Shown piece after piece: positions 20,764 to 43,603 of a stretch of 64,000 bases of DNA (positions are counted from its first letter, which is position 1; each line of letters begins with the position of its first letter). Location of the stretch: contig OZ243916.1 of assembly GCA_965213675.1 (NCBI GenBank), positions 1,536,001 to 1,600,000 on the forward strand, in the 5' to 3' direction. The notes under the pieces were generated by a model, which worked only from the letters and a program-made list of their open reading frames with translations, made no database searches and was not told the origin of the DNA. A program made the position numbers and the translations under genes. Source of the stretch: an uncultured Candidatus Binatia bacterium. GTDB taxonomy: Bacteria; Desulfobacterota; Binatia; UBA9968; JAJDTQ01.

Positions 20764-21960
20764 ATGACCTTGGATCTACCGACATTGCAGACTGCCGTAG
20801 CCGGCACGGCGGCAGCGTTCCGTTGCGTAACCACCTATCAGCCGGCGGGAGGCGCCGGCGACAAAGTCTTCCCCCCTACCTACGAAGGTGGAAGATACGC
20901 CACGGAGGAGCGAGTCGATCCCGCGACCGGCGAACACCGACCCTGTGTCCTTCTGGATTCCGTGCAGTCGCAGGCAAACCGCATGGAGTTGGCGTTGCTG
21001 GAAGCGCATCGCGCCGGCCAAGTAGCCCTTCCTCTGCTGGTGGCGCGCTTCGATCAGGAAGAACTGCTCAAAAAGTTCACAGTGACCAGCCTTGAAGCGC
21101 CTCACCGTATTGCGGATGCCCTTTTTCGCGACAGCCGCCTGGATGGAATGATCTTTCGCAAGTCAAAGAAGGGGCGAATCCTCGACACTGCAGACGTGCG
21201 GAACGCCACTGATCTGTTTGGTCTGTGTCCGACCGCTTTGGTGTTCGGACTGTGGGACTCGACCGGACCGCGTGGCGGGTTGGGCTGCAAGTTCCAACGG
21301 GCACTCGTGTCTGAAATAGTTGGGTACGACGCGGTGGCGGGGAAGAAGACGTCCAGCCGCATCGACCCTGCGGAGATCATGCGTAGCGCAGCTACGCTCT
21401 ACGAGCGCACGGCTGAAGGCGACGATGCGCCCCGCTGGACCTTGAACAAGGCGGACGGCAGGAAGCTCAAGACCGGACGGCCTTCGGAGGCCAACCACGG
21501 GAACGTCACTCCCACCATTGCGGATGGCGGATTCACCCTGTCGGGAGCCCGGCAAACGACAACCTTGTCGTTGGCGGTCTTGCGACGCCTCCGTTTTCCG
21601 CTCGATGGCGCCGCCACCTCGGACGCCGCTACCGATCTCGCCGCCCGCACCGCACTGGCTGCCATGGGCCTCGCCGCCGGTAGTCTGGCGCGCGTCGATA
21701 CCGACCTCCGTTCTCGCTGCCAACTGTTTGCGGAGCAAGCACCTGTGTGGGAATTGCTCGAGCGTCCTGGTGAAGTGCCACGACAATTTGAACACGGTCC
21801 CGAAGACGCGCTCGAACTGTTGGCGGAGGCGGTCAAGGTGGCCAAAGATGCCGGCCTGCCGTGGGAGGGCCAGATCGAATTGACTCCGTCGCCCGACTTG
21901 GTCGAACTGGTTCGGCGCAGCCAGGAACTGGCGAGCGCTTCGGAGGCGGAGCAAGGCTGA
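20764..21960 (+). CDS. csb1: Type I-G (I-U) Cas7 backbone subunit Csb1
   Basis: KVFPPTY, LLDSVQSQANRME, PHRIADA, PTALVFGLWDS, SRIDP motifs of Csb1; GGAG RBS before ATG 20764. Confidence 0.93.
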   Translation: MTLDLPTLQTAVAGTAAAFRCVTTYQPAGGAGDKVFPPTYEGGRYATEERVDPATGEHRPCVLLDSVQSQANRMELALLEAHRAGQVALPLLVARFDQEELLKKFTVTSLEAPHRIADALFRDSRLDGMIFRKSKKGRILDTADVRNATDLFGLCPTALVFGLWDSTGPRGGLGCKFQRALVSEIVGYDAVAGKKTSSRIDPAEIMRSAATLYERTAEGDDAPRWTLNKADGRKLKTGRPSEANHGNVTPTIADGGFTLSGARQTTTLSLAVLRRLRFPLDGAATSDAATDLAARTALAAMGLAAGSLARVDTDLRSRCQLFAEQAPVWELLERPGEVPRQFEHGPEDALELLAEAVKVAKDAGLPWEGQIELTPSPDLVELVRRSQELASASEAEQG

Positions 21961-24311: not shown

Positions 24312-24328
24312 CGTGACTGAGTTGACCG
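24312..24328 (+). repeat. Left copy of the 17-bp direct repeat bounding the type III-B block (CGTGACTGAGTTGACCG)
   Basis: 16/17 identical to 32579-32595; both copies contain a GTG start and encode VTELT. Confidence 0.85.
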
Positions 24329-26061
24329 ATGCGGCGCGGGAACACGTGCTACTGACACTGCTCGGAATGAACCCACAGGAGGCACGTTATCGCATAGAGA
24401 ACAAGACGGTGGACGCCACCCTCGCCCCCATCGCCCTGTTTGAGCTATTGCCGGAGGCAGACCGTCCGGACTGGATATTGGCGCTCTGCACGCCAGAGGC
24501 AAAAGGGGCCAGTTTGCCGATCCTCGAAGACGGGTTATCCGGCCAGTGTGTTGTGAAACCCGTTGACATTCCTGCCGGCAACTCTCAGGCGAACGTCCAT
24601 TCCTTCTTGGCTACAGTTGCCGCAGCCATACCGGAGAGAGCTGACCTCACGGTAGATGTTACCCACGGGTTCCGGCATTTTTCGTTCCTTACCTATGTCG
24701 CCGTCCTGTACGTATCGGCGCTTCGAGGCATACGGATACGCGGCGCGTACTACGGCATGTTGAGTCGCAATGATGTGAGTCCTTTTCTCGATTTGCGGCC
24801 GCTTCTTGAACTGCCCCGCTGGCTTCACGCGCTGCAGGTGTTGAAGGATACGGGGAGCGCCGCGTCCATTGCCCGCATCCTCAATGACGGCTCACAAGGA
24901 CAGGCGTCGCGGCGAATCGCAAAACGTCTGTCGCAGTTCTCGGAAGCGTACTTGTCCGGTCTTCCGCTCGAACTCGGCCGTCACGCGGATGAGTTCGAGC
25001 AGCAATCAATGAAGCCATTGAAGAAGCTACTCCAGAAGGATCACGCCTTACCCCTCGGGAACGAGTTGGCTGATCAACTTGCAGGGTTCCTGAAGCCGTT
25101 GGCCTTGGGATCACAAGTTTCAGGGAGCGGGTGGAAGCAAAAGATGGCGCTGTCGAAGGAGGAATTGGAGCGCCAAGCCGCAGTCATCGACAATCTGCTG
25201 CGCCACGGAAGCGTCACAGCCGCATTGGGTCTCATGAACGAGTGGACCGTATCGTGGGTGATTTGGGTCCGCGCGGAACGCAAAAGCGAGTGGCTCGACT
25301 ACCGCAAGGTCCGGCGCGACGCTGCGAGCCGTCTCGGCGCCATAAGGGCCATCGGCAACGACTCTGAATTGTGTTCGCTGTTGACGAAGGAACAGCGTTT
25401 GCTCGGAGCTTTTTGGAGAAAACTGTCTGACCTTCGCAATGGATACCACCACCACGGCATGCGCCCGCAGGTCCTGATCGGCGACGCGCAAACCGAGAAT
25501 GAGCTTCAGTGTGTGCGAGAATACTGGACGACAACGCTACGATCATGCCCTGAGAATTTCAGGTTCTCGCTCGGTGATTCGTCTGGAGGCCAAGTGCTGG
25601 TCAGTCCCATCGGGATGCGGCCCGGCGTACTGTACAGCGCATTGCACGCATGCAAGGGGGACAACAGCAAGAACATGTTGTCGCATTGCCTCGTGATCTG
25701 CTCGCCCGAAACCCAAGGGAGGATCGACGAAGCAGTAGAGCACGCGGGGTACAAAGGGCCTGTTGAACCGCTTGTTATCGAAGACGCATTCGGCGGTGGC
25801 TCCGGGGAAATCCACAGCGTCGTGGCGAGAGGGCGAAAACACATCATCGGCGCCGAGGCCGTCTTCGTGAACGTCACCGGCGGCACGACGCTCATGGGCC
25901 TTGCCGCCGAAGCCCTCGCCAGTGCAGGGCGTGAACTTGCCTGTCCGGTGCGCCGGTTCGGTATGATCGACCGCCGGCCGCCAAGAGAACAGGAGGACGA
26001 CCCCTACCGGGCCGGTGAACCCTTCTGGCTGGACGCGGGAGAAGACAAGGATGCCAACTGA
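24313..26061 (+). CDS. csx1: Csx1/TM1812-family CARF-HEPN ribonuclease with an extra C-terminal CARF domain (582 aa)
   Basis: DVTHGFRH CARF motif (24655), HEPN R-x4-H motif RNGYHH (25435-25452), second CARF-like domain VLVSPIGMRPGVL...VNVTGGTTLM (25591-26061). Confidence 0.85.
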   Translation: MTELTDAAREHVLLTLLGMNPQEARYRIENKTVDATLAPIALFELLPEADRPDWILALCTPEAKGASLPILEDGLSGQCVVKPVDIPAGNSQANVHSFLATVAAAIPERADLTVDVTHGFRHFSFLTYVAVLYVSALRGIRIRGAYYGMLSRNDVSPFLDLRPLLELPRWLHALQVLKDTGSAASIARILNDGSQGQASRRIAKRLSQFSEAYLSGLPLELGRHADEFEQQSMKPLKKLLQKDHALPLGNELADQLAGFLKPLALGSQVSGSGWKQKMALSKEELERQAAVIDNLLRHGSVTAALGLMNEWTVSWVIWVRAERKSEWLDYRKVRRDAASRLGAIRAIGNDSELCSLLTKEQRLLGAFWRKLSDLRNGYHHHGMRPQVLIGDAQTENELQCVREYWTTTLRSCPENFRFSLGDSSGGQVLVSPIGMRPGVLYSALHACKGDNSKNMLSHCLVICSPETQGRIDEAVEHAGYKGPVEPLVIEDAFGGGSGEIHSVVARGRKHIIGAEAVFVNVTGGTTLMGLAAEALASAGRELACPVRRFGMIDRRPPREQEDDPYRAGEPFWLDAGEDKDAN

Positions 26062-27064
26062 AATTCAGGCAACGTATCGTGTCATCACCCCGCTGTTCTG
26101 CGCTGGCGCCACTCGCTCTCACGCCGAACTTCGGACATCGTCCTTCAAGGGCGTGCTGCGCTTCTGGTGGCGGGCGCTGGCATGGTCGCGGCATAATGGA
26201 GATCTTCAAAGTATCCAGGATCACGAGAATCTGATCTTCGGAGCGGCCACTGTTGGCCAATCTCGCGTTTCCATTCTGCCGATTTCGATCAATGAAACAG
26301 TGTCCGGTTTCGGACACAATTTGGGACTTGGCCAAAGCGCTCGCTACTTGGCCCATGGCCTTCTGGAGAAAGACGAGAACAAGAAACGGGGGTTTCTTGA
26401 TCCAGATTTTAACCTCGTTGTTAGGATGAGAGTACGCGACTGTGATGACCGTCAAAAAGACCTGCTGAGAGATGCCTTGATCGCCTTGGGAATGTTCGGC
26501 GGCATGGGTGCAAGAAGTCGCAAGGGATTTGGCTCGACTTCTATCCGCTCTTTTCGCTTCGCAGGCGAACAGCAATCATTCGAGGTAGGGTCCGTACGGG
26601 AGTTGAGCCGCACGATCAAGCAGGTGTGTAGCGCTTATCGTCTATCAATCATGCCCGAATATACAGGGTTATCCAAAAGGGCTCGCCATCTGCTCCTTTC
26701 GAGCGACGGAAGTAACCCGCTTCAGTTGCTCGACAAGATCGGCGAAGAACTCAGGGAGGCCATTAGAACCGTACCACCTCTTCAGCGCATCGCCTTCGGT
26801 CTGCCACGCAAACCCCGCAACGACCGCCGCGCCAGCCCTTTGTTTATCCACATTCACGAGTGTGGTGATTCTCCGGTCGCCGTACTGTCGTTCCTCCCCG
26901 CGCGATTTCTGCCTGAACCCAAAGCGAATACTCCGGCCGCGGGAAACGGAATTGCTCAGCGTCCGATTCATGAACTCTACCGCCCGATTCACGACTTTCT
27001 TGACCGCCTGCTCGATCCGCAACGGAAGGGCCAGTTCACCGTTGTCCAGGAGGTGCAGCCGTGA
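26051..27064 (+). CDS. cmr1: Type III-B RAMP subunit Cmr1
   Basis: ITPLFCAGA, SFKGVLRFWWRA, GGMGARSRKGFGS, FGLP and RRASPLFI motifs. Confidence 0.92.
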   Translation: MPTEIQATYRVITPLFCAGATRSHAELRTSSFKGVLRFWWRALAWSRHNGDLQSIQDHENLIFGAATVGQSRVSILPISINETVSGFGHNLGLGQSARYLAHGLLEKDENKKRGFLDPDFNLVVRMRVRDCDDRQKDLLRDALIALGMFGGMGARSRKGFGSTSIRSFRFAGEQQSFEVGSVRELSRTIKQVCSAYRLSIMPEYTGLSKRARHLLLSSDGSNPLQLLDKIGEELREAIRTVPPLQRIAFGLPRKPRNDRRASPLFIHIHECGDSPVAVLSFLPARFLPEPKANTPAAGNGIAQRPIHELYRPIHDFLDRLLDPQRKGQFTVVQEVQP

Positions 27065-30157: not shown

Positions 30158-30982
30158 ATGAGAGCAGCGATGCTGGGGCTGTTGGCCGAAACACCCATCC
30201 ATCCTGGTGCCGGGCGCGGCATGGGCGTGGTGGACCTGCCTGTGGCCCGAGAGGCTGCCACCGACTATCCCGTGCTCGTCGGATCGAGCTTGAAGGGCGC
30301 ACTGCGTGACAAGGCGGACGACAGTTCCAGCGACGAGCGGTTCGGGAGACCAGATCACGCGGGTGACCTGCTGGTGTCGGACGCACGGCTGTTGCTGTTG
30401 CCAGTTCGCAGTCTGACCGGTGCATACCGCTGGACCACTTGTCCGCATCTCATCGAACGGTACGTTCGCGATTGTGCCCGCTCGGGTAGACAAACAGAGT
30501 CTTTGGCGAGCCTAGATGTGGACAAGGGAAAGGTGCTTGCGAACGGTTCCGGCGACCTGTTGTTCCTTGAAGAAAGGCAGTTCACCATCCAAGAACCTGC
30601 ACCCGGCTTGAAAGCCATCATCGCGCCGCTACTGCTTCATGAAGAAACGCGAAATCGGTTGGATGAACAGATCGCCGTACTGAACGATGACGATTTCGCT
30701 TGGTTCGTGCGTTACGGCCTTTCTGTACAGGCACGCAACGTTCTGGATAAAGATGGGAGCAAAAGGAGCAAAAACCTGTGGTACGAGGAAACTCTGCCTC
30801 CCGATACGGTGCTATATGCCGTCATCACGGGCCGAAGCAACACGGCTCTGGACACTTTGGATTCCATCTTTCCCGATAGCGACCCCTACCTGCAAGCCGG
30901 CGGCAACGAAACCGTCGGTCAGGGCTGGTTCGCCGTCAGCGTCCTCAAGCCCGCCGCCAAAAATGGGGAGAACTCCCAATGA
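30158..30982 (+). CDS. cmr4: Type III-B backbone RNase Cmr4
   Basis: ETPIHPGAG..VVDLPVARE (catalytic Asp retained), GSSLKGALR, LWYEETLPPDT, QAGGNETVGQG; AGGAGG RBS. Confidence 0.95.
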   Translation: MRAAMLGLLAETPIHPGAGRGMGVVDLPVAREAATDYPVLVGSSLKGALRDKADDSSSDERFGRPDHAGDLLVSDARLLLLPVRSLTGAYRWTTCPHLIERYVRDCARSGRQTESLASLDVDKGKVLANGSGDLLFLEERQFTIQEPAPGLKAIIAPLLLHEETRNRLDEQIAVLNDDDFAWFVRYGLSVQARNVLDKDGSKRSKNLWYEETLPPDTVLYAVITGRSNTALDTLDSIFPDSDPYLQAGGNETVGQGWFAVSVLKPAAKNGENSQ

Positions 30983-31389
30983 GGACCATCGAACAGGAAC
31001 GTGCGGCAAACGCCCTTGGGCGTGTGAGCGAACTGAGTAGCGAGATCCAAAGCGTCAAGGTGCGTTACAGAAGTTACGTGGATCGCCTCGGACCGGCCAT
31101 CGTGATGAACGGTTTGGGGCAGGCACTGGCTACGGAGCTTGCGGCGGCTGGCTCAGAACCGAACAATCCGGAGGCGAAGGCGCACCAGTATCTCTATAAA
31201 AGTGTCCAGGGGTGGCTTTGCCGCGACGGCGGCGTTTATCCGCCCGATACAGATCTCTTGCAGGTTCTTATGGAGAAGGACGAAGCGCATTACGTCCGCG
31301 CCCAAGCCGAAGCGTTGGCGTGGCTTGAGTGGCACAAGAAGTGCTGCCGAGCCTCTCTTCCGAAGGCGACACAAGGAGACGATTCGTGA
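30979..31389 (+). CDS. cmr5: Type III-B small subunit Cmr5
   Basis: EQERAANAL, MNGLGQALA, EALAWLEWHKK; sits between cmr4 and cmr6. Confidence 0.92.
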   Translation: MRTIEQERAANALGRVSELSSEIQSVKVRYRSYVDRLGPAIVMNGLGQALATELAAAGSEPNNPEAKAHQYLYKSVQGWLCRDGGVYPPDTDLLQVLMEKDEAHYVRAQAEALAWLEWHKKCCRASLPKATQGDDS

Positions 31390-32528: not shown

Positions 32529-32578
32529 GGGGCCGCATCGGGTGCCTCAACACTGACCTTGCCTGACGAAGTGAACCC

Positions 32579-32595
32579 CGTGACCGAGTTGACCG
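32579..32595 (+). repeat. Right copy of the 17-bp direct repeat (CGTGACCGAGTTGACCG) at the cas3 start
   Basis: 16/17 identical to 24312-24328. Confidence 0.85.
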
Positions 32596-35500
32596 CAACC
32601 AACTTCGTCGACTTCTTCACAGCGTCGTGGGGCCATCCGCCCTTTGCATGGCAGCGGACCTTGGCGGAGCGCGTGCTGGAACGTACCGAGGCCCCGTGGC
32701 CCGAGGCGATCGCTCTACCGACGGCTTCCGGCAAGACCGCTTGCATGGATGTCGCCGTGTTCGCGTTGGCGGCGCAAGCGTCGCGGATGGCGTCCAAGCA
32801 GACCATCACTATGCCTCGCCGCATCTTCTTCGTGGTGGACCGGCGCGTGATCGTGGACGAGGCGTATGAACGCGCCAGACGATTGGCCCAGAAACTGGAT
32901 GAAGCGGATGAGGGTATCGTCAAGAGCGTCGCGGACAATCTTCGGCAGATCGCCCACGGCGAACCAGAGGGATACGATCACGAGCGACCGCTGGCTGCCC
33001 ACTTGTTACGCGGCGGGATGTACCGCTCCGAAGCCTGGGCGCGGAATCCGTTGCAACCGACTGTGGTCGCATCCACCGTTGACCAGATCGGCTCTCGCCT
33101 GCTGTTCCGCGCCTATGGACGCGGCTCCGGCACTTGGCCGATCTATGCGGGACTCATCGCCAACGACAGCCTCATCCTGCTCGACGAGGCGCACTGCGCT
33201 CAACCGTTTCTTCAGACCCTGCGGGCGGTTCGACGTTTTCAGACTTGGGGGCATACCCCGCTCAAGCGATTCTTCTGTCCCGTGGTCATATCCGCCACGC
33301 CGCCCGCAGGAATAACGGACGTATTCGAGGACCGGTCCGATGAACGTTCCGATCCGCTTCATCCGCTCGGCCGGCGGCAAACCGCGCATAAGCCGGCGGT
33401 CCTGGAGACAGTCGAGAAAGCCAAAGGAAACCGAGCCACGCATGTGTTGGCTCAGGCTTTGGCCGATGCAGCAACCGGCTTGGTCAGTGAACAACGTCGA
33501 GCGATCGTGATATTCGCCAACCGCGTGGCCACGGCGCGGGAGACTCACCGGCTATTACGGAACGATTACGGAGACCGTGCGATCTTGCTCACCGGCCGTA
33601 TGCGCCCCGTGGATCGAGACGCCGTCGTTCAACAGCGTTTGACGCCCCTTTACTCTCATCGGTCAGAGCAACGCGTACTGAAAGAGCCGCTGGTTGTCGT
33701 AGCTACGCAGACCCTGGAAGTCGGTGCAGACCTTGATTTCGACGGTCTTGTCACGGAATGCTCAAGTCTTGACGCCCTGCGTCAACGCTTCGGCCGCTTG
33801 AACCGCATGGGACGGGCCATCGAAGCGCGAGCAAGGATTCTTGTCCGCGGAGACCAGGCTCACGCGGCCTCGGAAAATCCGGAGTCGGCGAAACAGAAGA
33901 CACGGATGGACGACGACCCGGTTTACGGTGCAGCCTTGGCCCGGACGTGGACGTGGCTCAACATGCACAAGGACGACGGGGATGCGATCGACTTCGGAAT
34001 CATCCATCTCGAACAGCAATTGACGGATGGCGGGTCCCTCGCGGCCCTTGACGCCCCGGCCCGTGACGCCGCGGTGATGCTTCCCGCCCACCTCGATTGC
34101 TGGGCGCAGACGGCCCCGGTCCCATGCCCGTCCCCTGACGTCGGCCTGTTCCTGCACGGCCCGCGCGAAGGAGTGGCTGACATTCAGGTCTGCTGGCGCG
34201 CGGACCTGGATCTGATCGGGGAACAGGAAACGGCGCTGGAGTTGCTATCCTTGTGCCCACCGAGCAGCAACGAAACCCTGCCCGTGCCCATCGGCGTGTT
34301 CCGGCGATGGCTGGCGCGGGGAGATGTCGAAGACGACAGTGCGGACGTGGAGGGAATCGAGGGAATCGGCACGGAGGACGATAGCGACAGAAAAAGTGCA
34401 CCGGTGGTCCGGTGGCGCGGGGCAGACACCGGCCGGGACGACATCACGGACGATCCCAAGGCCATTCGACCCGGCGACGTGATCGTGATTCCGGCCAGCC
34501 ATCCGGGACAGGCGCGCCAACTCGGCGACGTGCCGCCCGACGCTGCCCTCGACGTGGGTGACGAGGCTTATCGTCGCGCCCGTGCCAAATCCATCCTTCG
34601 GCTTCATCCGGCGCTCGTGAACGATTGGCCGGACTTCATCCCGGCGCAGACAGCCGCAGCCGAACTGCTGAAGAGTCTCGAGCAGAAGATGGAGTGCGAG
34701 GACGATTCGAACGACGTGGGTGATGCCTTGCGGGAGATACTGGCGGAGTTGGCCGCCTCGGAACCGACTTCGGAACGGTGGGCCTGGCTGCCGAAAACAG
34801 CCGGAGAGTTGCTGGAAGAGTACCGAAGCGGCGGGTTGGACCGCGCCTGCCGGATTGTCGGCAACGAAAGCATCGTCCTCGTCGGGCATCGCCACCTACG
34901 TCACCTCGCCCACGAAGCCGACAACTTCAGCGACGAGGATGACGCCGCCGCATCCGGCATTTCGCACCGGGACGGAGAACCTGTCCTGCTCGAAAAACAT
35001 CTTCCGGGGGTGGAAACGTTCGCCCGGCGTCACGCCGTGGGCTGTGGACTGCCGGATGAACTGGCGGATGCCGTGGCGCGGGCGGGGCTGTTGCACGATC
35101 TGGGCAAGGCCGACCGACGGTTTCAGTCCATGTTGCGCGGCGGCGCCCTCTGGTCCGACGGGCTGCTCCTGGCGAAATCCTCACGAATGCCCAAAACCCG
35201 AGCGGCCCGCGGTCGTGCGCACGCGGAATCCGGCTATCCCAGACGAGGCCGGCACGAATTGCTCTCAGTGCGTATGGCCGAGACCGCTTCGGCGCTTTTG
35301 CCCAAGGACGAGGAACTGCGCGACGTGGTTCTGCACCTGGTTGCCAGCCATCACGGCTACTGTCGGCCGTTCGCTCCCGTGGTATCTGATCCCGAGGGCG
35401 TGGAGGTTGAGTATGAACTGAACGGGTCGAAGATGTGCTGGTCCGGCCCTACCGGCCTTGAGCGCCTCGATTCCGGCATCGCAGACCGCTACTGGAGATT

Positions 35501-35606
35501 GGTGAGGCGCTATGGCTGGTGGGGCGTGGCTTGGCTGGAAGCCTTGTTGCGACTGGCAGACTGGCGGCGAAGCGAATGGGAGGAGACGCACGGTGCCGAC
35601 GAGTGA
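32580..35606 (+). CDS. cas3: Type I-G Cas3 (N-terminal SF2 helicase, C-terminal HD nuclease)
   Basis: PFAWQ, LPTASGKT (Walker A), VVDRRVIVD, LLDEAH, QRFGRLNR; C-terminal LLHDLGKAD (HD at 35094), RHE and SHHG. Alternative TTG start at 32559. Confidence 0.95.
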   Translation: MTELTATNFVDFFTASWGHPPFAWQRTLAERVLERTEAPWPEAIALPTASGKTACMDVAVFALAAQASRMASKQTITMPRRIFFVVDRRVIVDEAYERARRLAQKLDEADEGIVKSVADNLRQIAHGEPEGYDHERPLAAHLLRGGMYRSEAWARNPLQPTVVASTVDQIGSRLLFRAYGRGSGTWPIYAGLIANDSLILLDEAHCAQPFLQTLRAVRRFQTWGHTPLKRFFCPVVISATPPAGITDVFEDRSDERSDPLHPLGRRQTAHKPAVLETVEKAKGNRATHVLAQALADAATGLVSEQRRAIVIFANRVATARETHRLLRNDYGDRAILLTGRMRPVDRDAVVQQRLTPLYSHRSEQRVLKEPLVVVATQTLEVGADLDFDGLVTECSSLDALRQRFGRLNRMGRAIEARARILVRGDQAHAASENPESAKQKTRMDDDPVYGAALARTWTWLNMHKDDGDAIDFGIIHLEQQLTDGGSLAALDAPARDAAVMLPAHLDCWAQTAPVPCPSPDVGLFLHGPREGVADIQVCWRADLDLIGEQETALELLSLCPPSSNETLPVPIGVFRRWLARGDVEDDSADVEGIEGIGTEDDSDRKSAPVVRWRGADTGRDDITDDPKAIRPGDVIVIPASHPGQARQLGDVPPDAALDVGDEAYRRARAKSILRLHPALVNDWPDFIPAQTAAAELLKSLEQKMECEDDSNDVGDALREILAELAASEPTSERWAWLPKTAGELLEEYRSGGLDRACRIVGNESIVLVGHRHLRHLAHEADNFSDEDDAAASGISHRDGEPVLLEKHLPGVETFARRHAVGCGLPDELADAVARAGLLHDLGKADRRFQSMLRGGALWSDGLLLAKSSRMPKTRAARGRAHAESGYPRRGRHELLSVRMAETASALLPKDEELRDVVLHLVASHHGYCRPFAPVVSDPEGVEVEYELNGSKMCWSGPTGLERLDSGIADRYWRLVRRYGWWGVAWLEALLRLADWRRSEWEETHGADE

Positions 35607-36525: not shown

Positions 36526-36579
36526 CACAGAGCGTACGGCCTTGAATGGCTTTCCGTTCCCTGTATTGCTCTTCCTCGC

Positions 36580-38292
36580 ATGACTTCTGACGAACAACTC
36601 ACCCTGGCCCTGCCACCGCCTCCGGCCACCGGCGACACGCCGCTTGTCCCGGTCCGCATGATCAACGAATGGGTCTACTGCCCGCGTCTCGCCTACCTGG
36701 AATGGGTGGAGGGAGAATGGGCCGACAGCCAGGCCACGGCGGAGGGAAGACGCGCCCACGCACGGGTCGACGAAGGCGGTGGGCGGCTGCCTGCGCCGGA
36801 AGAACTCGACGAGGACCTTGCCCGCGCCAGGGCAGTCACCCTGTCCTCGGAACGCCTGGGCATCATCGCGAAGATGGACGTGGTGGAGGCTGACGGAGAA
36901 TCGGCCACGCCGGTGGACTTCAAGAAAGGCAAGAGGCCGCATGTGGCCGCTGGCGCTTATGAGCCCGAGCGGGTTCAAGTCTGCGCCCAAGCCATGATCC
37001 TGGAGGACAACGGCTACCGGGTGGAGCGGGGCGCTTTGTGGTACGCCGGCTCACGAGAACGTGTGCCGGTGGCGCTGGACCCCGAGCTGCGGGCGCGGAC
37101 CCTGGAAGCCATATCGGGCCTGCGCGCGGCTGCTGCTTCGGGTCGCCGCCCGCCGCCTCTGCAGAACAGCCCCAAGTGCCCGCGCTGCTCCCTCGCCGGC
37201 ATCTGCTTGCCGGACGAGACCAACCTGTTCCGCAAGGGTTATCCGCCTCGCCAGCTCAACCCTTCGGACAACCCGGCGCTGCCGCTCTACGTACAGACCC
37301 CAGGCGCAAAACTGCGCAAGAGTGGCGAACAGTTGGTCGTCGAAGTGGAGGAAGAGAAAGTGGAGGTGCCGATGATCGACGTGTCCCAAGTGGCGTTGTT
37401 CGGCCCGGTTTCCGTGACCACGCCGGCGCTTCACGCCCTGATGCGCGCCGAGGTTCCGGTTTCGTGGTTCTCAACCGGGGGATGGTTCCTCGGCCACACG
37501 GTGAGCACCGGGAACGGCAACGTGGCGGTGCGCGAGGCCCAGTACCGTTTCGCCTTCGATGAAGGCCGCAGTCTCGCCTTCTCTCGTGACTTGGTCGCGG
37601 CCAAGATACGCAACTCACGGACCCTGTTGCGCCGCAACTGGCGCGACGACCGGGAAGCAGGCGACAAGGCTGAGGCGTTGGAACGGCTGAGACGGCTGGC
37701 CCAACGTGCAACCTACACGGAAAATGCTCAACAACTATTGGGTATGGAGGGTGAGGCCGCGGCCATCTACTTCGCCCGCTTCGAGAACATGCTCGCGCCC
37801 AACGCGGATGAAGGCGTGGCAGCCTTCTCCTTCTCGACGCGCAACCGGCGTCCGCCTACGGACCCTGTAAACGCCATGCTGTCGCTGGCCTATGCCCTTC
37901 TGACACGGACCTTGACCACCGCGATCTCGGCGACGGGACTCGACCCCTACATGGGACTGTACCACCGGCCGCGGCACGGCCGCCCGGCCCTGGCCCTCGA
38001 CCTCATGGAGCCGTTCCGGCCCATTGTCGCCGATTCATGCGTGATCCAGGCCGTCAACAACGGCGAGGTCAAACCAAGCGATTTCGTTTTCAACGGGCCG
38101 AGTTGTGCGCTCAAGCCGGGCGGTCGCAAGGCGTTCATGGCGGCCTTCGAGCGCCGCATGGAACAGGAAACCACGCATCCGGTGTTCGGCTACCGCGTGT
38201 CCATGCGGCGGTTGATGGATGTGCAAGCGCGGCTGCTCGCCCGGCATTTCCAGGGAGAGATCCAGGCGTATCCGCACTATCTGCCCCGGTGA
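36580..38292 (+). CDS. cas1: Cas4-Cas1 fusion
   Basis: Cas4: YCPR, DVVE..DFKKG, CPRCSLAGIC. Cas1: LGMEGEAA, RNRRPPTDPVNAMLSLAY, LALDLMEPFRPIVAD. The fusion is typical of type I-G. Confidence 0.96.
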   Translation: MTSDEQLTLALPPPPATGDTPLVPVRMINEWVYCPRLAYLEWVEGEWADSQATAEGRRAHARVDEGGGRLPAPEELDEDLARARAVTLSSERLGIIAKMDVVEADGESATPVDFKKGKRPHVAAGAYEPERVQVCAQAMILEDNGYRVERGALWYAGSRERVPVALDPELRARTLEAISGLRAAAASGRRPPPLQNSPKCPRCSLAGICLPDETNLFRKGYPPRQLNPSDNPALPLYVQTPGAKLRKSGEQLVVEVEEEKVEVPMIDVSQVALFGPVSVTTPALHALMRAEVPVSWFSTGGWFLGHTVSTGNGNVAVREAQYRFAFDEGRSLAFSRDLVAAKIRNSRTLLRRNWRDDREAGDKAEALERLRRLAQRATYTENAQQLLGMEGEAAAIYFARFENMLAPNADEGVAAFSFSTRNRRPPTDPVNAMLSLAYALLTRTLTTAISATGLDPYMGLYHRPRHGRPALALDLMEPFRPIVADSCVIQAVNNGEVKPSDFVFNGPSCALKPGGRKAFMAAFERRMEQETTHPVFGYRVSMRRLMDVQARLLARHFQGEIQAYPHYLPR

Positions 38293-38298
38293 ACTGCC

Positions 38299-38592
38299 AT
38301 GGCCAATGAGCGTCTCTACATAGTGACTTACGACATCGCCGAGCCCAAGCGCTGGCAAAAGATATTCAAGACCATGAAGGGATACGGTCACTGGCTCCAA
38401 CTGTCGGTCTTTCAGTGTCGGCTCACGGCGCGCCGGCGCGCTGAGATGGCCATGCGCTTGGAAGACCTGATCCGGCCCTCGGAGGATCACATCCTGATCG
38501 TCGACCTCGGTCCCGCCGACAGCGTCGACCCGCGCGTCGAGAGCCTGGGCAAGAGCTACGAGGCGCCGGACCGTCGAGCCACGATCGTTTAG
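38299..38592 (+). CDS. cas2: CRISPR-associated endoribonuclease Cas2
   Basis: YIVTYDI..KRW, GYGHWLQLSVF; 97 aa. Confidence 0.96.
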   Translation: MANERLYIVTYDIAEPKRWQKIFKTMKGYGHWLQLSVFQCRLTARRRAEMAMRLEDLIRPSEDHILIVDLGPADSVDPRVESLGKSYEAPDRRATIV

Positions 38593-38801: not shown

Positions 38802-41800
38802 GATTCCGAGGCGTGATTGCCTCGGCCTCATTGAAGCTTGATCAGCGGCTTTGACTTTTTCTGGAATGCCATGTGATTCCGAGGCGTGATTGCCTCGGCC
38901 TCATTGAAGCCTACTCCCTAGTTATGGGCCATGCGGCCCGCCATCAATGATTCCGAGGCGTGATTGCCTCGGCCTCATTGAAGCATTGCGACGGGCCGAT
39001 AGGCACAACGAAGTGGTGTAGATTCCGAGGCGTGATTGCCTCGGCCTCATTGAAGCAACCACCCCGGGCACTTCAGGAGATCGTAGAGGCGCTGGGATTC
39101 CGAGGCGTGATTGCCTCGGCCTCATTGAAGCCGGTACACCTTTGGTCGTTTTGGAACGCTTGGCATTCGATTCCGAGGCGTGATTGCCTCGGCCTCATTG
39201 AAGCCAGATGTCCACGGTCCTCGAACGAACCAAGATCGAACAAGGATTCCGAGGCGTGATTGCCTCGGCCTCATTGAAGCCTGGCGCCAGGCCATCTGGG
39301 CCTGCTTGCTGCGCCGATTCCGAGGCGTGATTGCCTCGGCCTCATTGAAGCTTGAGAACGCCGAGGATCGCGCGTTCCAACGCGGACATGATTCCGAGGC
39401 GTGATTGCCTCGGCCTCATTGAAGCCATGAAATCGCACGGTATACCGGACTTACTACGTCCAGATTCCGAGGCGTGATTGCCTCGGCCTCATTGAAGCGC
39501 ACTGGGGATCCTTGGGCTGTAGCCCACACCCATCCTGATTCCGAGGCGTGATTGCCTCGGCCTCATTGAAGCGATGAGGGCTTGCGCGACAAGTTCAATG
39601 CCGGTGGACGATTCCGAGGCGTGATTGCCTCGGCCTCATTGAAGCGACCAGGTGGTTGAACTGTGCCAGCTGGGTGAAGCTCGATTCCGAGGCGTGATTG
39701 CCTCGGCCTCATTGAAGCACGAGGAACTCGCCGTGGCCGTGGGCGCCGCAACCGAGAAGATTCCGAGGCGTGATTGCCTCGGCCTCATTGAAGCTCGTCC
39801 AGCACCACGATCCCTTGCCGTTCGAGATCGAGGATTCCGAGGCGTGATTGCCTCGGCCTCATTGAAGCTACCGCCCGGCGCGCCGCCGCGAACACCGGGA
39901 TCCCCTGATTCCGAGGCGTGATTGCCTCGGCCTCATTGAAGCCGGATGTTCGGTTTACCAAGAATGGCGCGCTTCCAGGGCGATTCCGAGGCGTGATTGC
40001 CTCGGCCTCATTGAAGCCAGTTCTACCAGCGCGAGGGCGCGATCACAGACAGGATTCCGAGGCGTGATTGCCTCGGCCTCATTGAAGCCGACTACGCCGA
40101 ATATACGATCCCGGAGTTGATCCGGGAAGATTCCGAGGCGTGATTGCCTCGGCCTCATTGAAGCATGTGGGACGGGTTTGGGGTAGTCGAGTCGCGTGTA
40201 GAGATTCCGAGGCGTGATTGCCTCGGCCTCATTGAAGCTTCTGCCGCACGTCGAAGGACGAGTAGAAGTAGCGCTGATTCCGAGGCGTGATTGCCTCGGC
40301 CTCATTGAAGCGCGCATATTTAGGGGGGGGGTATGTGTTTTTGCGGTTGATTCCGAGGCGTGATTGCCTCGGCCTCATTGAAGCAATAGCAGTTTTGATT
40401 GCTGCCATCGCCTTCTCTCGCGATTCCGAGGCGTGATTGCCTCGGCCTCATTGAAGCCACGGCCACGCAATGGGCAGAAATCGAGCGGGCGTCGATTCCG
40501 AGGCGTGATTGCCTCGGCCTCATTGAAGCTACGGGCACGAAGCCCATGTGTTCCCGGAGAATGGGGATTCCGAGGCGTGATTGCCTCGGCCTCATTGAAG
40601 CGGGCATGGGATTAGGTTTGTGCCAGATGATTTCCGAGATTCCGAGGCGTGATTGCCTCGGCCTCATTGAAGCATCCCGCCCTTCATGGACTTCGTGCCG
40701 TTCATCAAGATTCCGAGGCGTGATTGCCTCGGCCTCATTGAAGCGAACTCCCATGGCGCCGTTGCATGGGTCCGGGTCCAAGGGGATTCCGAGGCGTGAT
40801 TGCCTCGGCCTCATTGAAGCGAACTCCCATGGCGCCGTTGCATGGGTCCGGGTCCAAGGGGATTCCGAGGCGTGATTGCCTCGGCCTCATTGAAGCGATC
40901 ATTTCTTCCTCCTACTAGGCCTGATGTCGGGCCGATTCCGAGGCGTGATTGCCTCGGCCTCATTGAAGCCACTTCCGGCAACCCTTCAATGCCGTTCTCG
41001 TAGAGATTCCGAGGCGTGATTGCCTCGGCCTCATTGAAGCGGCGCCAGCTTCTTGATTTTCTCGAAGATCAGCCGCGAGGATTCCGAGGCGTGATTGCCT
41101 CGGCCTCATTGAAGCGTACGTGCGAGCGTGTACACCTCCCGGTTTGACAGGGGGATTCCGAGGCGTGATTGCCTCGGCCTCATTGAAGCCCTCATTGTCA
41201 TCAGAGTATAGCGGATGCCTTCGGGCGATTCCGAGGCGTGATTGCCTCGGCCTCATTGAAGCTACTTCCACATCCACGCGTGCTCTGGATCGTCCGCGGG
41301 ATTCCGAGGCGTGATTGCCTCGGCCTCATTGAAGCGCGCTCTGCCACATTACGACTTGCATCGTGGTTTTCCTGATTCCGAGGCGTGATTGCCTCGGCCT
41401 CATTGAAGCTGACATTCATGTTTCTGTAAGGAGGAGATATGAGACGATTCCGAGGCGTGATTGCCTCGGCCTCATTGAAGCGTTTTGCCCGCGGCGCCGG
41501 TCTGATCCCACGGCAGCGATTCCGAGGCGTGATTGCCTCGGCCTCATTGAAGCGCCATGAGATCGTCCATCGTGTCGCGGTACCGGTCGTGATTCCGAGG
41601 CGTGATTGCCTCGGCCTCATTGAAGCAACGGCGATGCGTCGACGATGATTTCCAGAGCTTCCTCGATTCCGAGGCGTGATTGCCTCGGCCTCATTGAAGC
41701 GTACACGTCGCGGCCCTGACGGCGGGCGACGTGCAGCGGATTCCGAGGCGTGATTGCCTCGGCCTCATTGAAGCATTGACCAGTGGATCGGAGACTGGGT

Positions 41801-43603
41801 GATCTCCGTGGATTCCGAGGCGTGATTGCCTCGGCCTCATTGAAGCAGTAAAGTCTCCCGACTCCATCAGCGTCCGTTCGTTATGATTCCGAGGCGTGAT
41901 TGCCTCGGCCTCATTGAAGCCGAGGTAGCCTGCGCCGAACAATCCGAGGAGGCCGGCAGGATTCCGAGGCGTGATTGCCTCGGCCTCATTGAAGCGCGGA
42001 ACAATCGGGTTTCCATGAATTAAGGGAGGCAAGGACGATTCCGAGGCGTGATTGCCTCGGCCTCATTGAAGCGAATTTGTCAAGGCAATTGACACGGCGC
42101 TGTCACGCGGGATTCCGAGGCGTGATTGCCTCGGCCTCATTGAAGCGTGCGGCTGTCGGGCGGGGGTGGATCAAGCGAGGGGAGATTCCGAGGCGTGATT
42201 GCCTCGGCCTCATTGAAGCCAGCGGCGCGGCTTTCGCAGGTTCGAGGCGGTAGAGATGATTCCGAGGCGTGATTGCCTCGGCCTCATTGAAGCCTCGCTA
42301 CACACCACGCAGTACACTGGCTCCTCGCCGATTCCGAGGCGTGATTGCCTCGGCCTCATTGAAGCCGGGAATCAGCGACTTGACGAGAAGCCAGCCTGTC
42401 TCGATTCCGAGGCGTGATTGCCTCGGCCTCATTGAAGCCACCGGGTTCAGGGTGGTGTTGACGCTTGGCGTGGATGATTCCGAGGCGTGATTGCCTCGGC
42501 CTCATTGAAGCCATACGATCCGAGAAAGTTACTTCTTTTGGACCCCACCGATTCCGAGGCGTGATTGCCTCGGCCTCATTGAAGCAGGAATATGCACGCC
42601 ATTGAAGAGAACATAGCGCAGATTCCGAGGCGTGATTGCCTCGGCCTCATTGAAGCCAATATTCTTGTTGACAACCACGACATCCGAATCGAAGGGGATT
42701 CCGAGGCGTGATTGCCTCGGCCTCATTGAAGCCCGACGCCGTACCAACCGGTTACAGCGCGGGGGCCGTGATTCCGAGGCGTGATTGCCTCGGCCTCATT
42801 GAAGCATCGAGACTCCGGCCCGCCTCCACCAGCGTCCGAAACGGATTCCGAGGCGTGATTGCCTCGGCCTCATTGAAGCCCGACATGATGGAGGATATTC
42901 AAGGCCAGGAAATCGCGGATTCCGAGGCGTGATTGCCTCGGCCTCATTGAAGCCGATCCTCCTTCGTAGAGATCTTCTCCACGTAGTAAGTGATTCCGAG
43001 GCGTGATTGCCTCGGCCTCATTGAAGCAAGTAGCCACCGCATCGAGGTTGCCGCCTCGCGCACCCGATTCCGAGGCGTGATTGCCTCGGCCTCATTGAAG
43101 CGCCACCCCTTGTGTATGGTCGGCGGCGGATGCGGCGGATTCCGAGGCGTGATTGCCTCGGCCTCATTGAAGCTGGTGGACCAGACTTCGGCCGCGCTGA
43201 CAAAGGCCGGGCGATTCCGAGGCGTGATTGCCTCGGCCTCATTGAAGCTCCTCATCCGCGTCCCCGTCCAGTGTGGGCGGTTCGGATTCCGAGGCGTGAT
43301 TGCCTCGGCCTCATTGAAGCGCGGCGATGTGGCCGTGGTGGATCGTGGCGACATGGACGATTCCGAGGCGTGATTGCCTCGGCCTCATTGAAGCGTGAGC
43401 GTCTTCGCCGGGTCGCCGATCACATCCAACGCGATTCCGAGGCGTGATTGCCTCGGCCTCATTGAAGCTTCTCCTGCTCGATCTGCGCCTTCGCCTTGTC
43501 GGCAAGATTCCGAGGCGTGATTGCCTCGGCCTCATTGAAGCCTCCTTGAAATGTGGTTGAAGTAATATGTGGCCACGATTCCGAGGCGTGATTGCCTCGG
43601 CCT
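38802..43603 (+). CRISPR. CRISPR array: repeat GATTCCGAGGCGTGATTGCCTCGGCCTCATTGAAGC (36 bp), 65 full repeats plus one truncated, 65 spacers of about 35-41 nt
   Basis: Counted manually. 7-bp stem CCGAGGC/GCCTCGG and 3' ATTGAAGC handle. Spacers 27 and 28 are identical. The last repeat (43577-43603) is cut after 27 nt. Confidence 0.98.

What the first reader, a model, noticed from the sequence alone, without database searches (positions are those of the whole stretch)
20764..43603. Single-operon I-G/III-B hybrid that appears to share one array, one adaptation module and one crRNA-processing enzyme
Seen: 13 co-oriented, mostly overlapping or abutting cas genes; no stand-alone cas6 in the window; Cas10 lacks an HD domain but keeps GGDD; Cas3 keeps helicase and HD motifs; one array whose repeat ends in ATTGAAGC. 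Established: type III complexes need crRNA with an 8-nt 5' tag made by a Cas6-type enzyme, and in type I-G that activity resides in Csb2. Inference: the PRTase-bearing Csb2 supplies crRNA to both complexes, giving a division of labour - DNA destruction by I-G/Cas3, RNA sensing and cyclic-oligoadenylate signalling by Cmr. Type I/III co-occurrence is known; the nesting inside one operon is the unusual part.
Basis: partly seen in the sequence, partly recalled or inferred. Interest (0 to 1): 0.7.

Follow-up and report, generated by a model that had tools for sequence, protein, structure and literature searches.

The report
Nested type I-G/III-B CRISPR locus
One gene cluster in an uncultured bacterium holds a DNA-cutting and an RNA-sensing CRISPR system that most likely share one spacer array and one RNA-processing enzyme; similar sharing is already known, but that enzyme carries an extra domain otherwise seen in phage proteins.

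Summary
Thirteen co-oriented cas genes (20764-38592) are followed by a 65-spacer array. The order is csb1, csb2, a Csx1-type CARF-HEPN-CARF gene, cmr1-6, cas3g, a short Cas8g, cas4-cas1 and cas2. The 97.7%-complete genome has one Cas1, one Cas10, one array and no Cas6 by five models.

Csb2 makes 8-nt-handle crRNA in type I-G (Shangguan 2022). Haliangium cmr1-6 plus csb2 plus a mini-array works in E. coli (Steens 2023). Pyrococcus furiosus nests Cmr beside a type I module with shared Cas6 and arrays (Elmore 2015).

New evidence here:
- Ten spacers match a phage contig of the same assembly, with a 5'-TTC PAM in 7 of 10.
- The same III-B nest occurs in 2 of 77 related loci, and a III-A-like nest in 4 more.
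- All tested genes are under purifying selection.

The less expected result is the insert in Csb2. It is a real PRTase fold with an invariant PRPP loop. It is found in at least 370 Csb2 clusters and belongs to the PRTase family of phage and plasmid polyvalent proteins. My searches found no description of this fusion.

Verdict: a new member or variant of a known kind, of moderate interest.

The parts
20764..21960 (+). csb1 (Cas7g backbone subunit of type I-G). The longest ORF starts at 20737; the likely start is the ATG at 20764 with a GGGAGAA Shine-Dalgarno.
   Evidence: PF09617 E 6.7e-53 and TIGR02570; start codons
21960..24311 (+). csb2 (Cas5-Cas6 fusion, 783 aa). It has a Cas5-like N domain, a PRTase-like insert at about residues 262-505 of the 816-aa ORF numbering (window about 22640-23380), and a Cas6-like C domain with an invariant HxH and a G-rich loop.
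   Evidence: TIGR02165 E 1.8e-88; PADLOC Cas56g; insert delimited against 21 short forms; AF2 plus Foldseek give a PRTase fold; conserved His residues
24295..26061 (+). Csx1-family cOA effector, CARF(DxTHG)-HEPN(RNxxxH)-CARF, 588 aa
   Evidence: PDLC01840 E 1.6e-141; TIGR02221/TIGR02549; invariant D-THG and R-N-xxx-H in 49 homologues; AF2 pLDDT 87.4; best fold match Csx1-Crn2 8y6z, E 2e-14
26051..27064 (+). cmr1 (start uncertain: 26015 GTG or 26051 ATG)
   Evidence: TIGR01894, PF03787
27061..29028 (+). cmr2/cas10, without an HD domain, cyclase GGDD present
   Evidence: PF22335 E 3.7e-31, PF12469 from residue 6, TIGR02577; sequence; the only Cas10 palm in the genome
29025..30143 (+). cmr3
   Evidence: PF09700 E 6.8e-59
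30158..30982 (+). cmr4 (longest ORF from 30101; likely start 30158 after AGGAGG)
   Evidence: TIGR02580 E 3e-49; sequence with 'VVDLPV'; starts
30979..31389 (+). cmr5
   Evidence: PF09701 E 9.3e-29
31386..32528 (+). cmr6 (longest ORF from 31329; likely start 31386)
   Evidence: TIGR01898 E 9.3e-37; starts
32559..35606 (+). cas3g, helicase with a C-terminal HD nuclease
   Evidence: TIGR02621 E 4.8e-213; PF22590, PF18019
35593..36525 (+). short Cas8g large subunit (NCBIfam name 'Cas3-extension family'). Longest ORF from 35512.
   Evidence: NF049934 E 4.5e-82; PADLOC Cas8g PDLC01514 E 8.8e-92; N-terminal motif aligns to Cas8g1/Csx17 of L030, hhalign probability 90.5
36580..38292 (+). cas4-cas1 fusion
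   Evidence: NF049935 E 4.5e-237
38299..38592 (+). cas2
   Evidence: PF09827, TIGR01573
38593..38801 (+). leader (209 nt, with a T-rich stretch)
   Evidence: sequence; orientation from the PAM side and from phage-matching spacers near this end
38802..43603 (+). CRISPR array: 65 perfect 36-nt repeats, 65 spacers of 35-41 nt, and a terminal truncated repeat at 43577-43603
44095..44130 (+). orphan repeat (1 mismatch) beyond an IS-like fragment; a remnant of the old array end

Best explanation
This is a composite CRISPR-Cas locus of an uncultured bacterium; its closest relatives are 'Candidatus Binatia' MAGs.

The host module is a complete type I-G system of the variant with a short Cas8g: csb1, csb2, cas3g, cas8g-short, cas4-cas1, cas2 and the array. 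A complete type III-B effector (cmr1-6) and its Csx1-type CARF-HEPN-CARF RNase are inserted at the csb2/cas3 junction.

Proposed mechanism:
1. Cas4-Cas1-Cas2 acquire spacers next to a 5'-TTC PAM. This step is shown indirectly, by the protospacers.
2. The array is transcribed from the cas2 side.
3. The Cas6-like C-terminal domain of Csb2 cuts each repeat 4 nt after the hairpin, leaving the 8-nt AUUGAAGC handle. This is inferred from the repeat geometry and published I-G biochemistry.
4. The crRNAs go to two complexes. One is Csb1-Csb2-Cas8g Cascade, which recruits Cas3g to destroy PAM-flanked DNA. The other is Cmr, which binds complementary transcripts and cleaves them through Cmr4. Because its Cas10 lacks HD, Cmr acts mainly by making cyclic oligoadenylate, which switches on the HEPN RNase. 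The second CARF domain probably limits the signal. All of step 4 is inferred.

The type III part adds PAM-independent, transcription-dependent back-up for those guides that happen to be antisense to mRNAs.
For: - Gene identities.
- Single system in the genome: one array, one Cas1, one Cas10, RAMPs only here, and no Cas6 by 5 models.
- Repeat fold: a stem, then 4 nt, then an unpaired 8-nt AUUGAAGC. MFE is -16.1 kcal/mol, z = -3.0. This matches the Csb2 cleavage geometry reported for Thioalkalivibrio I-G.
- The Csb2 C domain keeps H609, H620, H720, H780, H782 and the G-rich loop in at least 70 of 73 homologues.
- Ten strong spacer matches fall on contig C20 of the same assembly. C20 is a tailed phage with terminase, major head, adaptor and helicase genes. 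TTC sits 5' of 7 of the 10 protospacers, P = 1.5e-10. Four of the first 11 spacers match it strongly (a fifth, sp2, only weakly, 28 of 38), which fits recent leader-end acquisition.
- The same csb1-csb2-CARF-cmr1-6-cas3 order occurs in L014 (Binatia) and L020 (Latescibacterota). Neither genome has a Cas6 match to PF01881 or TIGR01877.
- dN/dS is 0.13-0.35 for 10 genes against L014, and 0.10-0.26 for 9 of 10 genes against L020 (cmr4 could not be computed there).
- Precedents: Haliangium cmr1-6 plus csb2 plus a mini-array gives target-RNA-dependent cA3 signalling in E. coli. P. furiosus has Cst and Cmr in one locus with shared Cas6 and arrays.
Against: - There is no expression, processing or loading evidence of any kind.
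- The genome is a MAG-like assembly, 97.7% complete with 8% contamination. A cas6 could lie in missing sequence or be too divergent for the five models.
- In I-G, Csb2 stays bound to the cleaved hairpin as a Cascade subunit. Hand-over to Cmr therefore needs release or 3' trimming, which is unexplained.
- The Steens construct had no csb2-minus control in the text I read. It shows that csb2 is sufficient, not that it is needed.
- Only 2 of 11 phage protospacers lying in an ORF (1 of 5 in homology-verified genes) give a crRNA antisense to the predicted mRNA. Binomial P = 0.065 two-sided. This gives no sign of selection by type III.
- The two other genomes with the III-B nest each hold 3 Cas1 genes. 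Other CRISPR loci could serve Cmr there.
- Phage C20 carries perfect TTC-flanked protospacers yet co-occurs in the sample. This is compatible with population heterogeneity but also with weak interference.
Confidence: 0.68

Rival explanations
1. Cmr obtains its crRNAs by another route. Candidates are a housekeeping RNase, an undetected divergent Cas6, or processing within the Cmr complex. In that case Csb2 serves only the I-G Cascade, to which it stays bound.
For: Csb2 binds its hairpin product tightly and is an integral Cascade subunit (Shangguan 2022 passages). The assembly is not closed. A 17-bit sub-threshold Cas6e-like match exists on contig C14.
Against: Five Cas6 models and the RAMP model find nothing outside the locus. 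Csb2 sufficed as the only Cas6-type protein for a Cmr system in E. coli. Cmr needs the 8-nt handle that Csb2-type cleavage would produce on this repeat.
Confidence: 0.12
2. Only one of the two effector modules is active. Either the I-G part survives mainly as a biogenesis and adaptation platform for Cmr, or the Cmr nest is a passenger that no longer works.
For: Perfectly matched, TTC-flanked protospacers persist on a co-assembled phage contig. cmr1 is far more diverged than its neighbours (45% identity against 77-80%, dN 0.41). In close relatives the same site holds a different type III cassette, so the nest turns over quickly.
Against: All 13 ORFs are intact. dN/dS is 0.13-0.35 for both modules. 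Cas3g keeps its helicase and HD domains. Cas10 keeps GGDD, and the effector keeps DxTHG and RNxxxH. The TTC PAM is what I-G interference uses (TTN).
Confidence: 0.12
3. The PRTase insert changes what Csb2 does. It might make crRNA processing or Cascade activity depend on PRPP or a nucleotide. It might instead add an enzymatic output. On this reading the locus is not simply I-G plus III-B.
For: The insert is as conserved as the flanking domains (64% against 63-66% mean pairwise identity). Its DD...GQGGT PRPP loop is invariant in 49 sequences. It has a confident PRTase fold. Close relatives sit in phage and plasmid polyvalent proteins.
Against: Short-form Csb2 without the insert sits in otherwise identical loci. 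The insert state changes at least 8 times on the Csb2 tree, so it is dispensable for the core function. Most loci with the insert have no type III genes within the flanks held.
Confidence: 0.08

Closest known systems
Type I-G CRISPR-Cas (Thioalkalivibrio sulfidiphilus; Shangguan et al. 2022, NAR, PMC9638904; passages read)
   Same: Csb1 backbone; Csb2 as a Cas5-Cas6 fusion; Cas3 with a C-terminal HD; Cas4-Cas1 fusion; 36-nt repeat with a stem, 4 nt, then the 8-nt handle; TTN-type PAM (TTC here).
   Different: The large subunit is the short (about 300 aa) Cas8g variant, not Cas8g1/Csx17. Csb2 carries a roughly 245-aa PRTase-like insert in the interdomain linker. A type III-B module sits inside the operon.
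Pyrococcus furiosus Cst + Cmr locus (Elmore et al. 2015, PMC4666368, passages read; Majumdar et al. 2015, listing and abstract only)
   Same: Type I and type III-B effector genes lie in one locus, flanked by the processing enzyme and the adaptation genes. One Cas6 activity, one adaptation set and shared arrays feed several effector complexes.
   Different: The processing enzyme there is a free-standing Cas6. The type I module is Cst (called 'I-G' by those authors, but not the Csb1/Csb2 system). It is archaeal, has seven arrays, and its Cas10 has an HD domain (recalled).
Haliangium ochraceum type III-B (Steens et al. 2023 preprint, 10.1101/2023.06.23.546230; passages and section 6 read)
   Same: [quoted passage not shown] Signalling by cyclic oligoadenylate depended on target RNA.
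   Different: The effectors there are SAVED-CHAT and PCaspase, not Csx1. I could not see the native position of csb2 relative to cmr, because figures and supplements are not held. Whether that Csb2 has the PRTase insert is unknown.
Marinomonas mediterranea I-F / III-B (Silas et al. 2017, eLife; listing and abstract only)
   Same: A type III-B system gives redundancy to a type I system against escape.
   Different: Those are separate loci. Its III-B has its own adaptation genes, and the type I partner is I-F with Cas6f.
PRTase domain of phage and plasmid polyvalent proteins (Iyer et al. 2017, PMC5512222; passages read)
   Same: The Csb2 insert profile hits solo proteins, MuF fusions and giant polyvalent proteins at E 1e-55 to 1e-134. 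It has the DD motif. ComF is the best TM-score match.
   Different: Here the domain sits inside a host Cas protein rather than in a protein of an invading element. The passages I read do not mention such a fusion.

Membership tests
Type I-G CRISPR-Cas | csb2 (Cas5-Cas6 fusion) present | tested here: met
   TIGR02165 E 1.8e-88, over cut-off; PADLOC Cas56g
Type I-G CRISPR-Cas | Csb1/Cas7g backbone subunit | tested here: met
   PF09617 E 6.7e-53; TIGR02570 74.5 bits, over cut-off
Type I-G CRISPR-Cas | Cas3g helicase-nuclease with C-terminal HD | tested here: met
   TIGR02621 710 bits, full length; Cas3_HD at residues 819-935
Type I-G CRISPR-Cas | Large subunit Cas8g | tested here: met
   No Cas8g1/Csx17. 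The 300-aa protein at 35593-36525 matches PADLOC Cas8g (CAS-I-U effector_LS), E 8.8e-92. It shares the N-terminal motif of Csx17 (hhalign probability 90.5). It is present in 67 of 77 related loci.
Type I-G CRISPR-Cas | Cas4-Cas1 fusion plus Cas2 | tested here: met
   NF049935 788 bits; TIGR01573
Type I-G CRISPR-Cas | Csb2 cleaves the repeat to give an 8-nt 5' handle | not testable with these tools
   Only consistent features were seen: repeat geometry, an invariant HxH and a G-rich loop. I could not map the published catalytic H503 because I did not have that sequence.
Type I-G CRISPR-Cas | 5'-TTN PAM | tested here: met
   TTC in 7 of 10 strong protospacers and TT at -3/-2 in 8 of 10. This shows acquisition preference, not interference.
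Type III-B (Cmr) | Cas10/Cmr2 plus Cmr1, 3, 4, 5, 6 | tested here: met
   All six were found. Cmr3 (76 bits against a cut-off of 100) is below the NCBIfam cut-off but far above the Pfam one (200 bits).
Type III-B (Cmr) | Cyclase-competent Cas10 (GGDD) | tested here: met
   GGDD present; palm2 E 3.7e-31. Activity was not tested.
Type III-B (Cmr) | HD nuclease domain of Cas10 | tested here: not met
   The protein begins with Cmr2_N at residue 6, and no HD family matched at E <= 0.01. HD-less Cas10 occurs in III-B (recalled), so this does not exclude membership.
Type III-B (Cmr) | Own cas6 and own array (common but not defining) | tested here: not met
   None in the genome
Csx1/Csm6 CARF-HEPN effectors | CARF domain with a ligand-site motif, and HEPN Rx4-6H | tested here: met
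   D121-T123-H124-G125 and R381-N382-xxx-H386 are invariant in 49 sequences. PADLOC CARF_HEPN_CARF E 1.6e-141. Fold match to Csx1-Crn2, E 2e-14.
Type I PRTase superfamily (the Csb2 insert) | PRTase fold with a PRPP-binding loop (acidic pair, then a G/T-rich loop) | tested here: met
   AF2 pLDDT 85. Foldseek found 78 PDB hits at E <= 1e-3, and every listed row is a PRTase-fold protein. D149 D150 ... G153 Q154 G155 G156 T157 are invariant. The Pfam Pribosyltran score is below its cut-off (17.8 against 26.3). Catalysis was not tested.

The most novel reading that the evidence does not exclude
The roughly 245-aa domain inserted between the Cas5 and Cas6 halves of Csb2 is a captured copy of the PRTase that phages and conjugative elements carry in MuF fusions and giant polyvalent proteins. 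It would give a Cascade complex a built-in PRPP- or nucleotide-binding or enzymatic activity. It might make or destroy a nucleotide signal, or hold single-stranded nucleic acid as ComF does, when foreign DNA is met. In hybrid loci such as this one it could cross-talk with cyclic-oligoadenylate signalling. That would be an RNA-guided type I effector with a second, non-nuclease output.
Probability: 0.2. Interest if true: 0.8.

Novelty: new variant of a known kind. Interest (0 to 1): 0.45.

Why it matters
Sharing of arrays, adaptation genes and a processing enzyme between type I and type III systems is established, so the hybrid itself adds a case rather than a principle. It is, however, a clean natural case. 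The genome has a single array, a single Cas1 and no free Cas6, so an integral Cascade subunit (Csb2) must also serve a type III complex. This raises a concrete, testable question: how is crRNA released from Csb2 and handed to Cmr?

Closely related loci carry either a III-B or a III-A-like cassette at the same junction. This suggests that this I-G lineage acts as a docking platform for cas6-less type III modules.

The PRTase insert in Csb2 is widespread, as conserved as the flanking Csb2 domains, and related to a domain of phage and plasmid polyvalent proteins whose role Iyer et al. call 'somewhat enigmatic'. Because Cascade is an experimentally tractable setting, this fusion may give a handle on what that domain does.

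Tried and rejected
- Expression: the look-up of sequencing runs listed no RNA holder. Read laying was therefore not used, and the one-transcript claim stays untested.
- Promoter and terminator scan of 20300-39000: 1 promoter-like site (3.4 expected) and 13 terminator-like sites (18.5 expected), so it is uninformative.
- PDB sequence searches: Csb2 gave only weak APRT-loop matches (E about 0.02). The short Cas8g and the CARF protein gave nothing.
- SAVED search of the genome: no hit, but the control genomes did not ring either, so it carries no information.
- Spacers against the host chromosome: only partial matches of 22 nt or less outside the array, so there is no self-targeting.
- An apparent similarity of the CARF ORF to Cas3 ORFs of other loci is an artefact. 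The ORF's upstream extension lies in another frame of the conserved csb2 3' end.
- An apparent cmr6 hit in L057 lies beside a transposase and an AAA-ATPase. Pfam gave it only a weak ResIII match. I treat it as a relic or chance and did not follow it up.
- I considered that the missing Csx17 meant an incomplete I-G system. I rejected this after PADLOC and hhalign identified the short Cas8g.
- Link between the insert and type III nests: all 7 nested loci have the long Csb2, but so do about 50 of 71 others, and the nests cluster on the tree. No independent association can be claimed.
- Literature: 'phosphoribosyltransferase' + 'Csb2' gave 1 irrelevant paper. 'PRTase' + 'CRISPR' + 'Cas6' gave 2 papers, neither opened. 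'type I-U' + 'type III-B' + 'cas6' + 'hybrid' gave 4 papers; I opened one (Shah 2018), and it did not bear on this. 'type I-G' + 'type III-B' gave 36 papers, of which 25 were listed. The Mycobacteriaceae paper was not relevant.
- Supplements are closed. Supplementary Figure S9 of Shangguan 2022 (Cas8g variants), File S2 of Iyer 2017 (PRTase alignment) and the Extended Data of Steens 2023 (locus map, construct) may bear on the Cas8g-short, PRTase and csb2-position statements.


Full report
WHAT IS THERE

Between a minus-strand gltB (15796-20487) and a molybdopterin enzyme gene (44595-) lie 13 plus-strand cas genes and an array. Pfam, NCBIfam and PADLOC give this order:
- csb1/cas7g
- csb2/cas5-6g
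- a CARF-HEPN-CARF protein
- cmr1, cas10/cmr2, cmr3, cmr4, cmr5, cmr6
- cas3g
- a 300-aa protein that NCBIfam names 'Cas3-extension family' and PADLOC names Cas8g (E 8.8e-92)
- cas4-cas1
- cas2

With the most likely start codons, neighbouring genes overlap by 1-17 nt or lie 1-14 nt apart. The exceptions are cmr6/cas3 (30-42 nt) and cas8g/cas4-cas1 (54 nt). A consensus scan for promoters and terminators was uninformative. A single operon is therefore likely from the anatomy but is not shown.

The array has 65 perfect 36-nt repeats at 38802-43541, with none expected by chance. A truncated last repeat lies at 43577-43603. An orphan repeat lies about 490 bp further on, beyond an IS-like fragment.

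IS IT THE ONLY SYSTEM?

The window lies in a 4.53-Mb assembly of 21 contigs, 97.7% complete with 8% contamination.
- The repeat occurs only here.
- My k-mer scan found no other array of 4 or more units.
- There is one Cas1 and one Cas10 palm domain.
- The three RAMP matches are Cmr1, Cmr4 and Cmr6.
- Five Cas6 models gave nothing over threshold: PF01881, PF10040, TIGR01877, Cas6f PF09618 and Cas6e PF08798. The last gave one 17-bit match on C14.

The only Cas6-type domain seen is thus the C-terminal half of Csb2.

THE I-G MODULE IS COMPLETE

I first suspected a missing large subunit, because no Csx17/Cas8g1 is present. Three results argue against that:
- The 300-aa protein after cas3 is conserved in 67 of 77 related loci.
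- It matches PADLOC's I-U/I-G large-subunit model over its full length.
- Its N-terminal motif aligns to a bona fide Cas8g1/Csx17 from locus L030 (TIGR04113, E 3.7e-190) with hhalign probability 90.5.

Shangguan et al. 2022 state that I-G large subunits come in three size variants (passage).

THE III-B MODULE AND ITS EFFECTOR

Cas10 (655 aa) begins with the Cmr2_N region, has no HD match, and keeps GGDD. Cmr4 has the 'VVDLPV' stretch where, from memory, the catalytic Asp lies.

The gene between csb2 and cmr1 is a Csx1-family protein:
- DxTHG and RNxxxH are invariant in 49 homologues.
- The PADLOC family is CARF_HEPN_CARF.
- The AF2 model has pLDDT 87.4.
- Its best PDB match is the Marinitoga Csx1-Crn2 ribonuclease (E 2e-14).

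The family has at least 539 clusters, which sources name 'DxTHG motif protein'. With an HD-less Cas10, cOA signalling to this RNase is the expected main output.

DIRECTION, PAM AND TARGETS

Ten spacers match contig C20 of the same assembly at 33 or more identities, and four of them match perfectly. Two more match weakly. C20 is 70.6 kb with 56% GC. It encodes terminase, major head protein, a head-tail adaptor and a helicase. It is therefore a tailed phage binned with the host.

On the spacer-identical strand, the three bases 5' of the protospacer are TTC in 7 of 10 cases. The others are CTT (a 1-nt slip), TAC and TTG. The probability is 1.5e-10 given a 2% TTC frequency. This fixes the transcription direction: the leader is at the cas2 side and the handle is AUUGAAGC. 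It also matches the TTN PAM of I-G. Four of the first 11 spacers match this phage strongly, and a fifth (sp2) only weakly (28 of 38), as expected for recent acquisition at the leader end.

Strand test for type III. Of 11 protospacers that lie in an ORF, 2 give a crRNA complementary to the predicted mRNA. Among the 5 that lie in genes verified by PHROG hits, 1 does (sp30, helicase). This is not significantly different from 50:50 (two-sided P = 0.065). It shows no selection by RNA targeting. Against this phage, most guides are usable only by the DNA-targeting I-G complex.

REPEAT GEOMETRY

The repeat folds into a stem followed by 4 nt and then the unpaired 8-nt AUUGAAGC. Shangguan et al. report that Csb2 cuts '4 nt downstream of the 7 bp stem', leaving a canonical 8-nt handle, through a C-terminal His, H503.

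In 73 Csb2 homologues, H609, H620, H720, H780 and H782 and the terminal G-rich loop are kept in at least 70. I could not map H503, because I lacked that sequence. A BLAST alignment to a canonical Csb2 at 24% identity places an HxH in the same region in both proteins.

COMPARATIVE EVIDENCE

A scan of species-representative genomes with Csb2 found 184 confirmed stretches. Of these, 77 distinct loci were kept.

The usual order is csb1-csb2-cas3-cas8g(short)-cas4/cas1-cas2, or cas3-cas8g-csb1-csb2. The full CARF plus cmr1-6 nest at the csb2/cas3 junction recurs in L014 (Binatia) and L020 (Latescibacterota).

Four other loci carry a Cas10 of about 500 aa without HD:
- In L013 and L017 I annotated its neighbours as Csm2, Csm3, Csm4 and a CARF protein.
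- L015 is cut by its contig end, and L029 was judged only by likeness to L017.
- The cassette sits at csb2/cas3 in L013 and L015, and at cas8g/cas4-cas1 in L017 and L029.

On a Csb2 tree built without the insert columns, all seven nested loci fall in one 19-row clade (SH-aLRT 95). The four Binatia rows form a clade (98) in which two carry III-B and two carry the III-A-like set at the same site. This implies cassette replacement.

Cas6 in the other genomes:
- The genomes of L014 and L020 have no match to PF01881 or TIGR01877.
- Those of L013 and L015 have a Cas6 elsewhere.
- Those of L017 and L029 have sub-threshold matches.
- All six genomes have 2-6 Cas1 matches, so they hold other CRISPR loci.

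Selection. dN/dS against L014 is 0.13-0.35 for the ten genes csb1 to cas3. Against L020 it is 0.10-0.26, with cmr4 not computable.

THE PRTase INSERT

Relative to 21 short Csb2 forms of about 528 aa, the window's protein has an insert at residues about 262-505. This is exactly the linker between the two domains (the linker is at R260 in the published protein).

- At least 370 clusters at 90% identity carry it, with 64-94% identity to the window over the insert. Sources annotate them simply as Csb2.
- In 49 sequences the PRPP loop D149 D150 ... G153 Q154 G155 G156 T157 is invariant.
- The AF2 model is confident (pLDDT 85, pTM 0.85).
- Foldseek returns 78 PDB hits at E <= 1e-3, and every listed row is a PRTase-fold protein: OPRT, APRT, XPRT, HPRT, ComF, PurR, ShosT and PRPP synthetase. 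ComF gives the best query-normalised TM-score.
- The insert is as conserved as the flanking domains.
- Its presence changes at least 8 times on the tree.

A profile search of 1.84 billion representatives found 2549 proteins at E <= 1e-3 and 844 at E <= 1e-30. Only a few of the best 150 have Csb2's length and domain position. They include solo proteins of about 240-250 aa, C-terminal fusions, and giants of 1,400-4,683 aa. I scanned 7 of them against Pfam:
- 2 are MuF fusions.
- 3 carry large-polyvalent-protein domains (LPD37, LPD38, LPD39, ddrB-ParB, ART-PolyVal).
- 1 has only Pribosyltran.
- 1 has no match.

This is the 'invasive-element PRTase' of Iyer et al. 2017, whose role they call enigmatic (passages). 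In the window's genome only Csb2 carries it. I found no paper that links it to Csb2.

COMPARISON AND VERDICT

The functional idea is established: one array, one adaptation set and one processing enzyme feed both a type I and a type III-B complex. P. furiosus shows it, with the effector genes even in one locus. M. mediterranea shows type III-B giving redundancy to a type I system (abstract only). Csb2 has already been used as the Cas6 of a Cmr system.

The present locus is a clean bacterial example with an integral Cascade subunit as the shared enzyme. It belongs to a small lineage of I-G loci that repeatedly host cas6-less type III cassettes.

The part that lies furthest from what is described is the PRTase-bearing Csb2.

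Confidence that the locus works as a shared-crRNA I-G/III-B composite is about 0.68. Interest is 0.45.

Noticed in passing
G000 contig C20 (loci L091-L095), outside the window: A 70.6-kb, 56% GC contig of the same assembly is a tailed-phage genome fragment with terminase, major head, head-tail adaptor and helicase genes. It carries 10 strong and 2 weak protospacers for this array. Four are perfect matches, three with a TTC PAM and one with CTT (a 1-nt slip), yet the phage co-occurs with the host in the sample.
   Followed up: partly
window 22640-23380 (the Csb2 insert) and proteins P0245-P0394: The PRTase-like insert belongs to a large family (2549 representatives at E <= 1e-3). Members are found as solo proteins, MuF fusions and domains of giant phage or plasmid polyvalent proteins.
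   Followed up: partly
window 26015-27064 (cmr1): cmr1 is only 45% identical to its L014 orthologue (dN 0.41). The flanking genes are 77-80% identical (dN about 0.11). This suggests local replacement of this one gene.
   Followed up: no
L030:4000-22454: A PRTase-type I-G effector set without adaptation genes is followed in tandem by a canonical I-G system (cas3, Cas8g1/Csx17, csb1, a 556-aa csb2, cas4-cas1). Several other loci with the order cas3-cas8g-csb1-csb2 also lack nearby cas1/cas2.
   Followed up: partly
L013:12421-17412 and L017:16492-21214: A minimal III-A-like cassette is nested in I-G loci. It has an HD-less Cas10/Csm1 of about 500 aa, Csm2, Csm3, Csm4 and a CARF protein (Csm6-like in L013, ring-nuclease-like in L017). 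No Csm5 and no cas6 were seen in the cassette.
   Followed up: partly
window 43577-44610: The trailer end of the array is broken. It holds a truncated repeat, a short HTH ORF resembling an IS fragment, an orphan repeat at 44095-44130, then an antitoxin-like ORF and a truncated PIN-like ORF. These names come from reading the translation, not from a family search.
   Followed up: no
window 40745-40784 and 40821-40860: Spacers 27 and 28 are identical (a 40-nt duplicated repeat-spacer unit).
   Followed up: no
L057:15342-17429: A 143-aa ORF similar to the window's cmr6 ORF (E 3e-24) lies next to a DDE transposase. It may be a relic of a lost nest.
   Followed up: no
G000:C14:29272-29622 (L090): A weak Cas6e-family match (17 bits, below the 25-bit cut-off) lies inside a 619-aa open frame on a small contig. 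It is probably chance.
   Followed up: no
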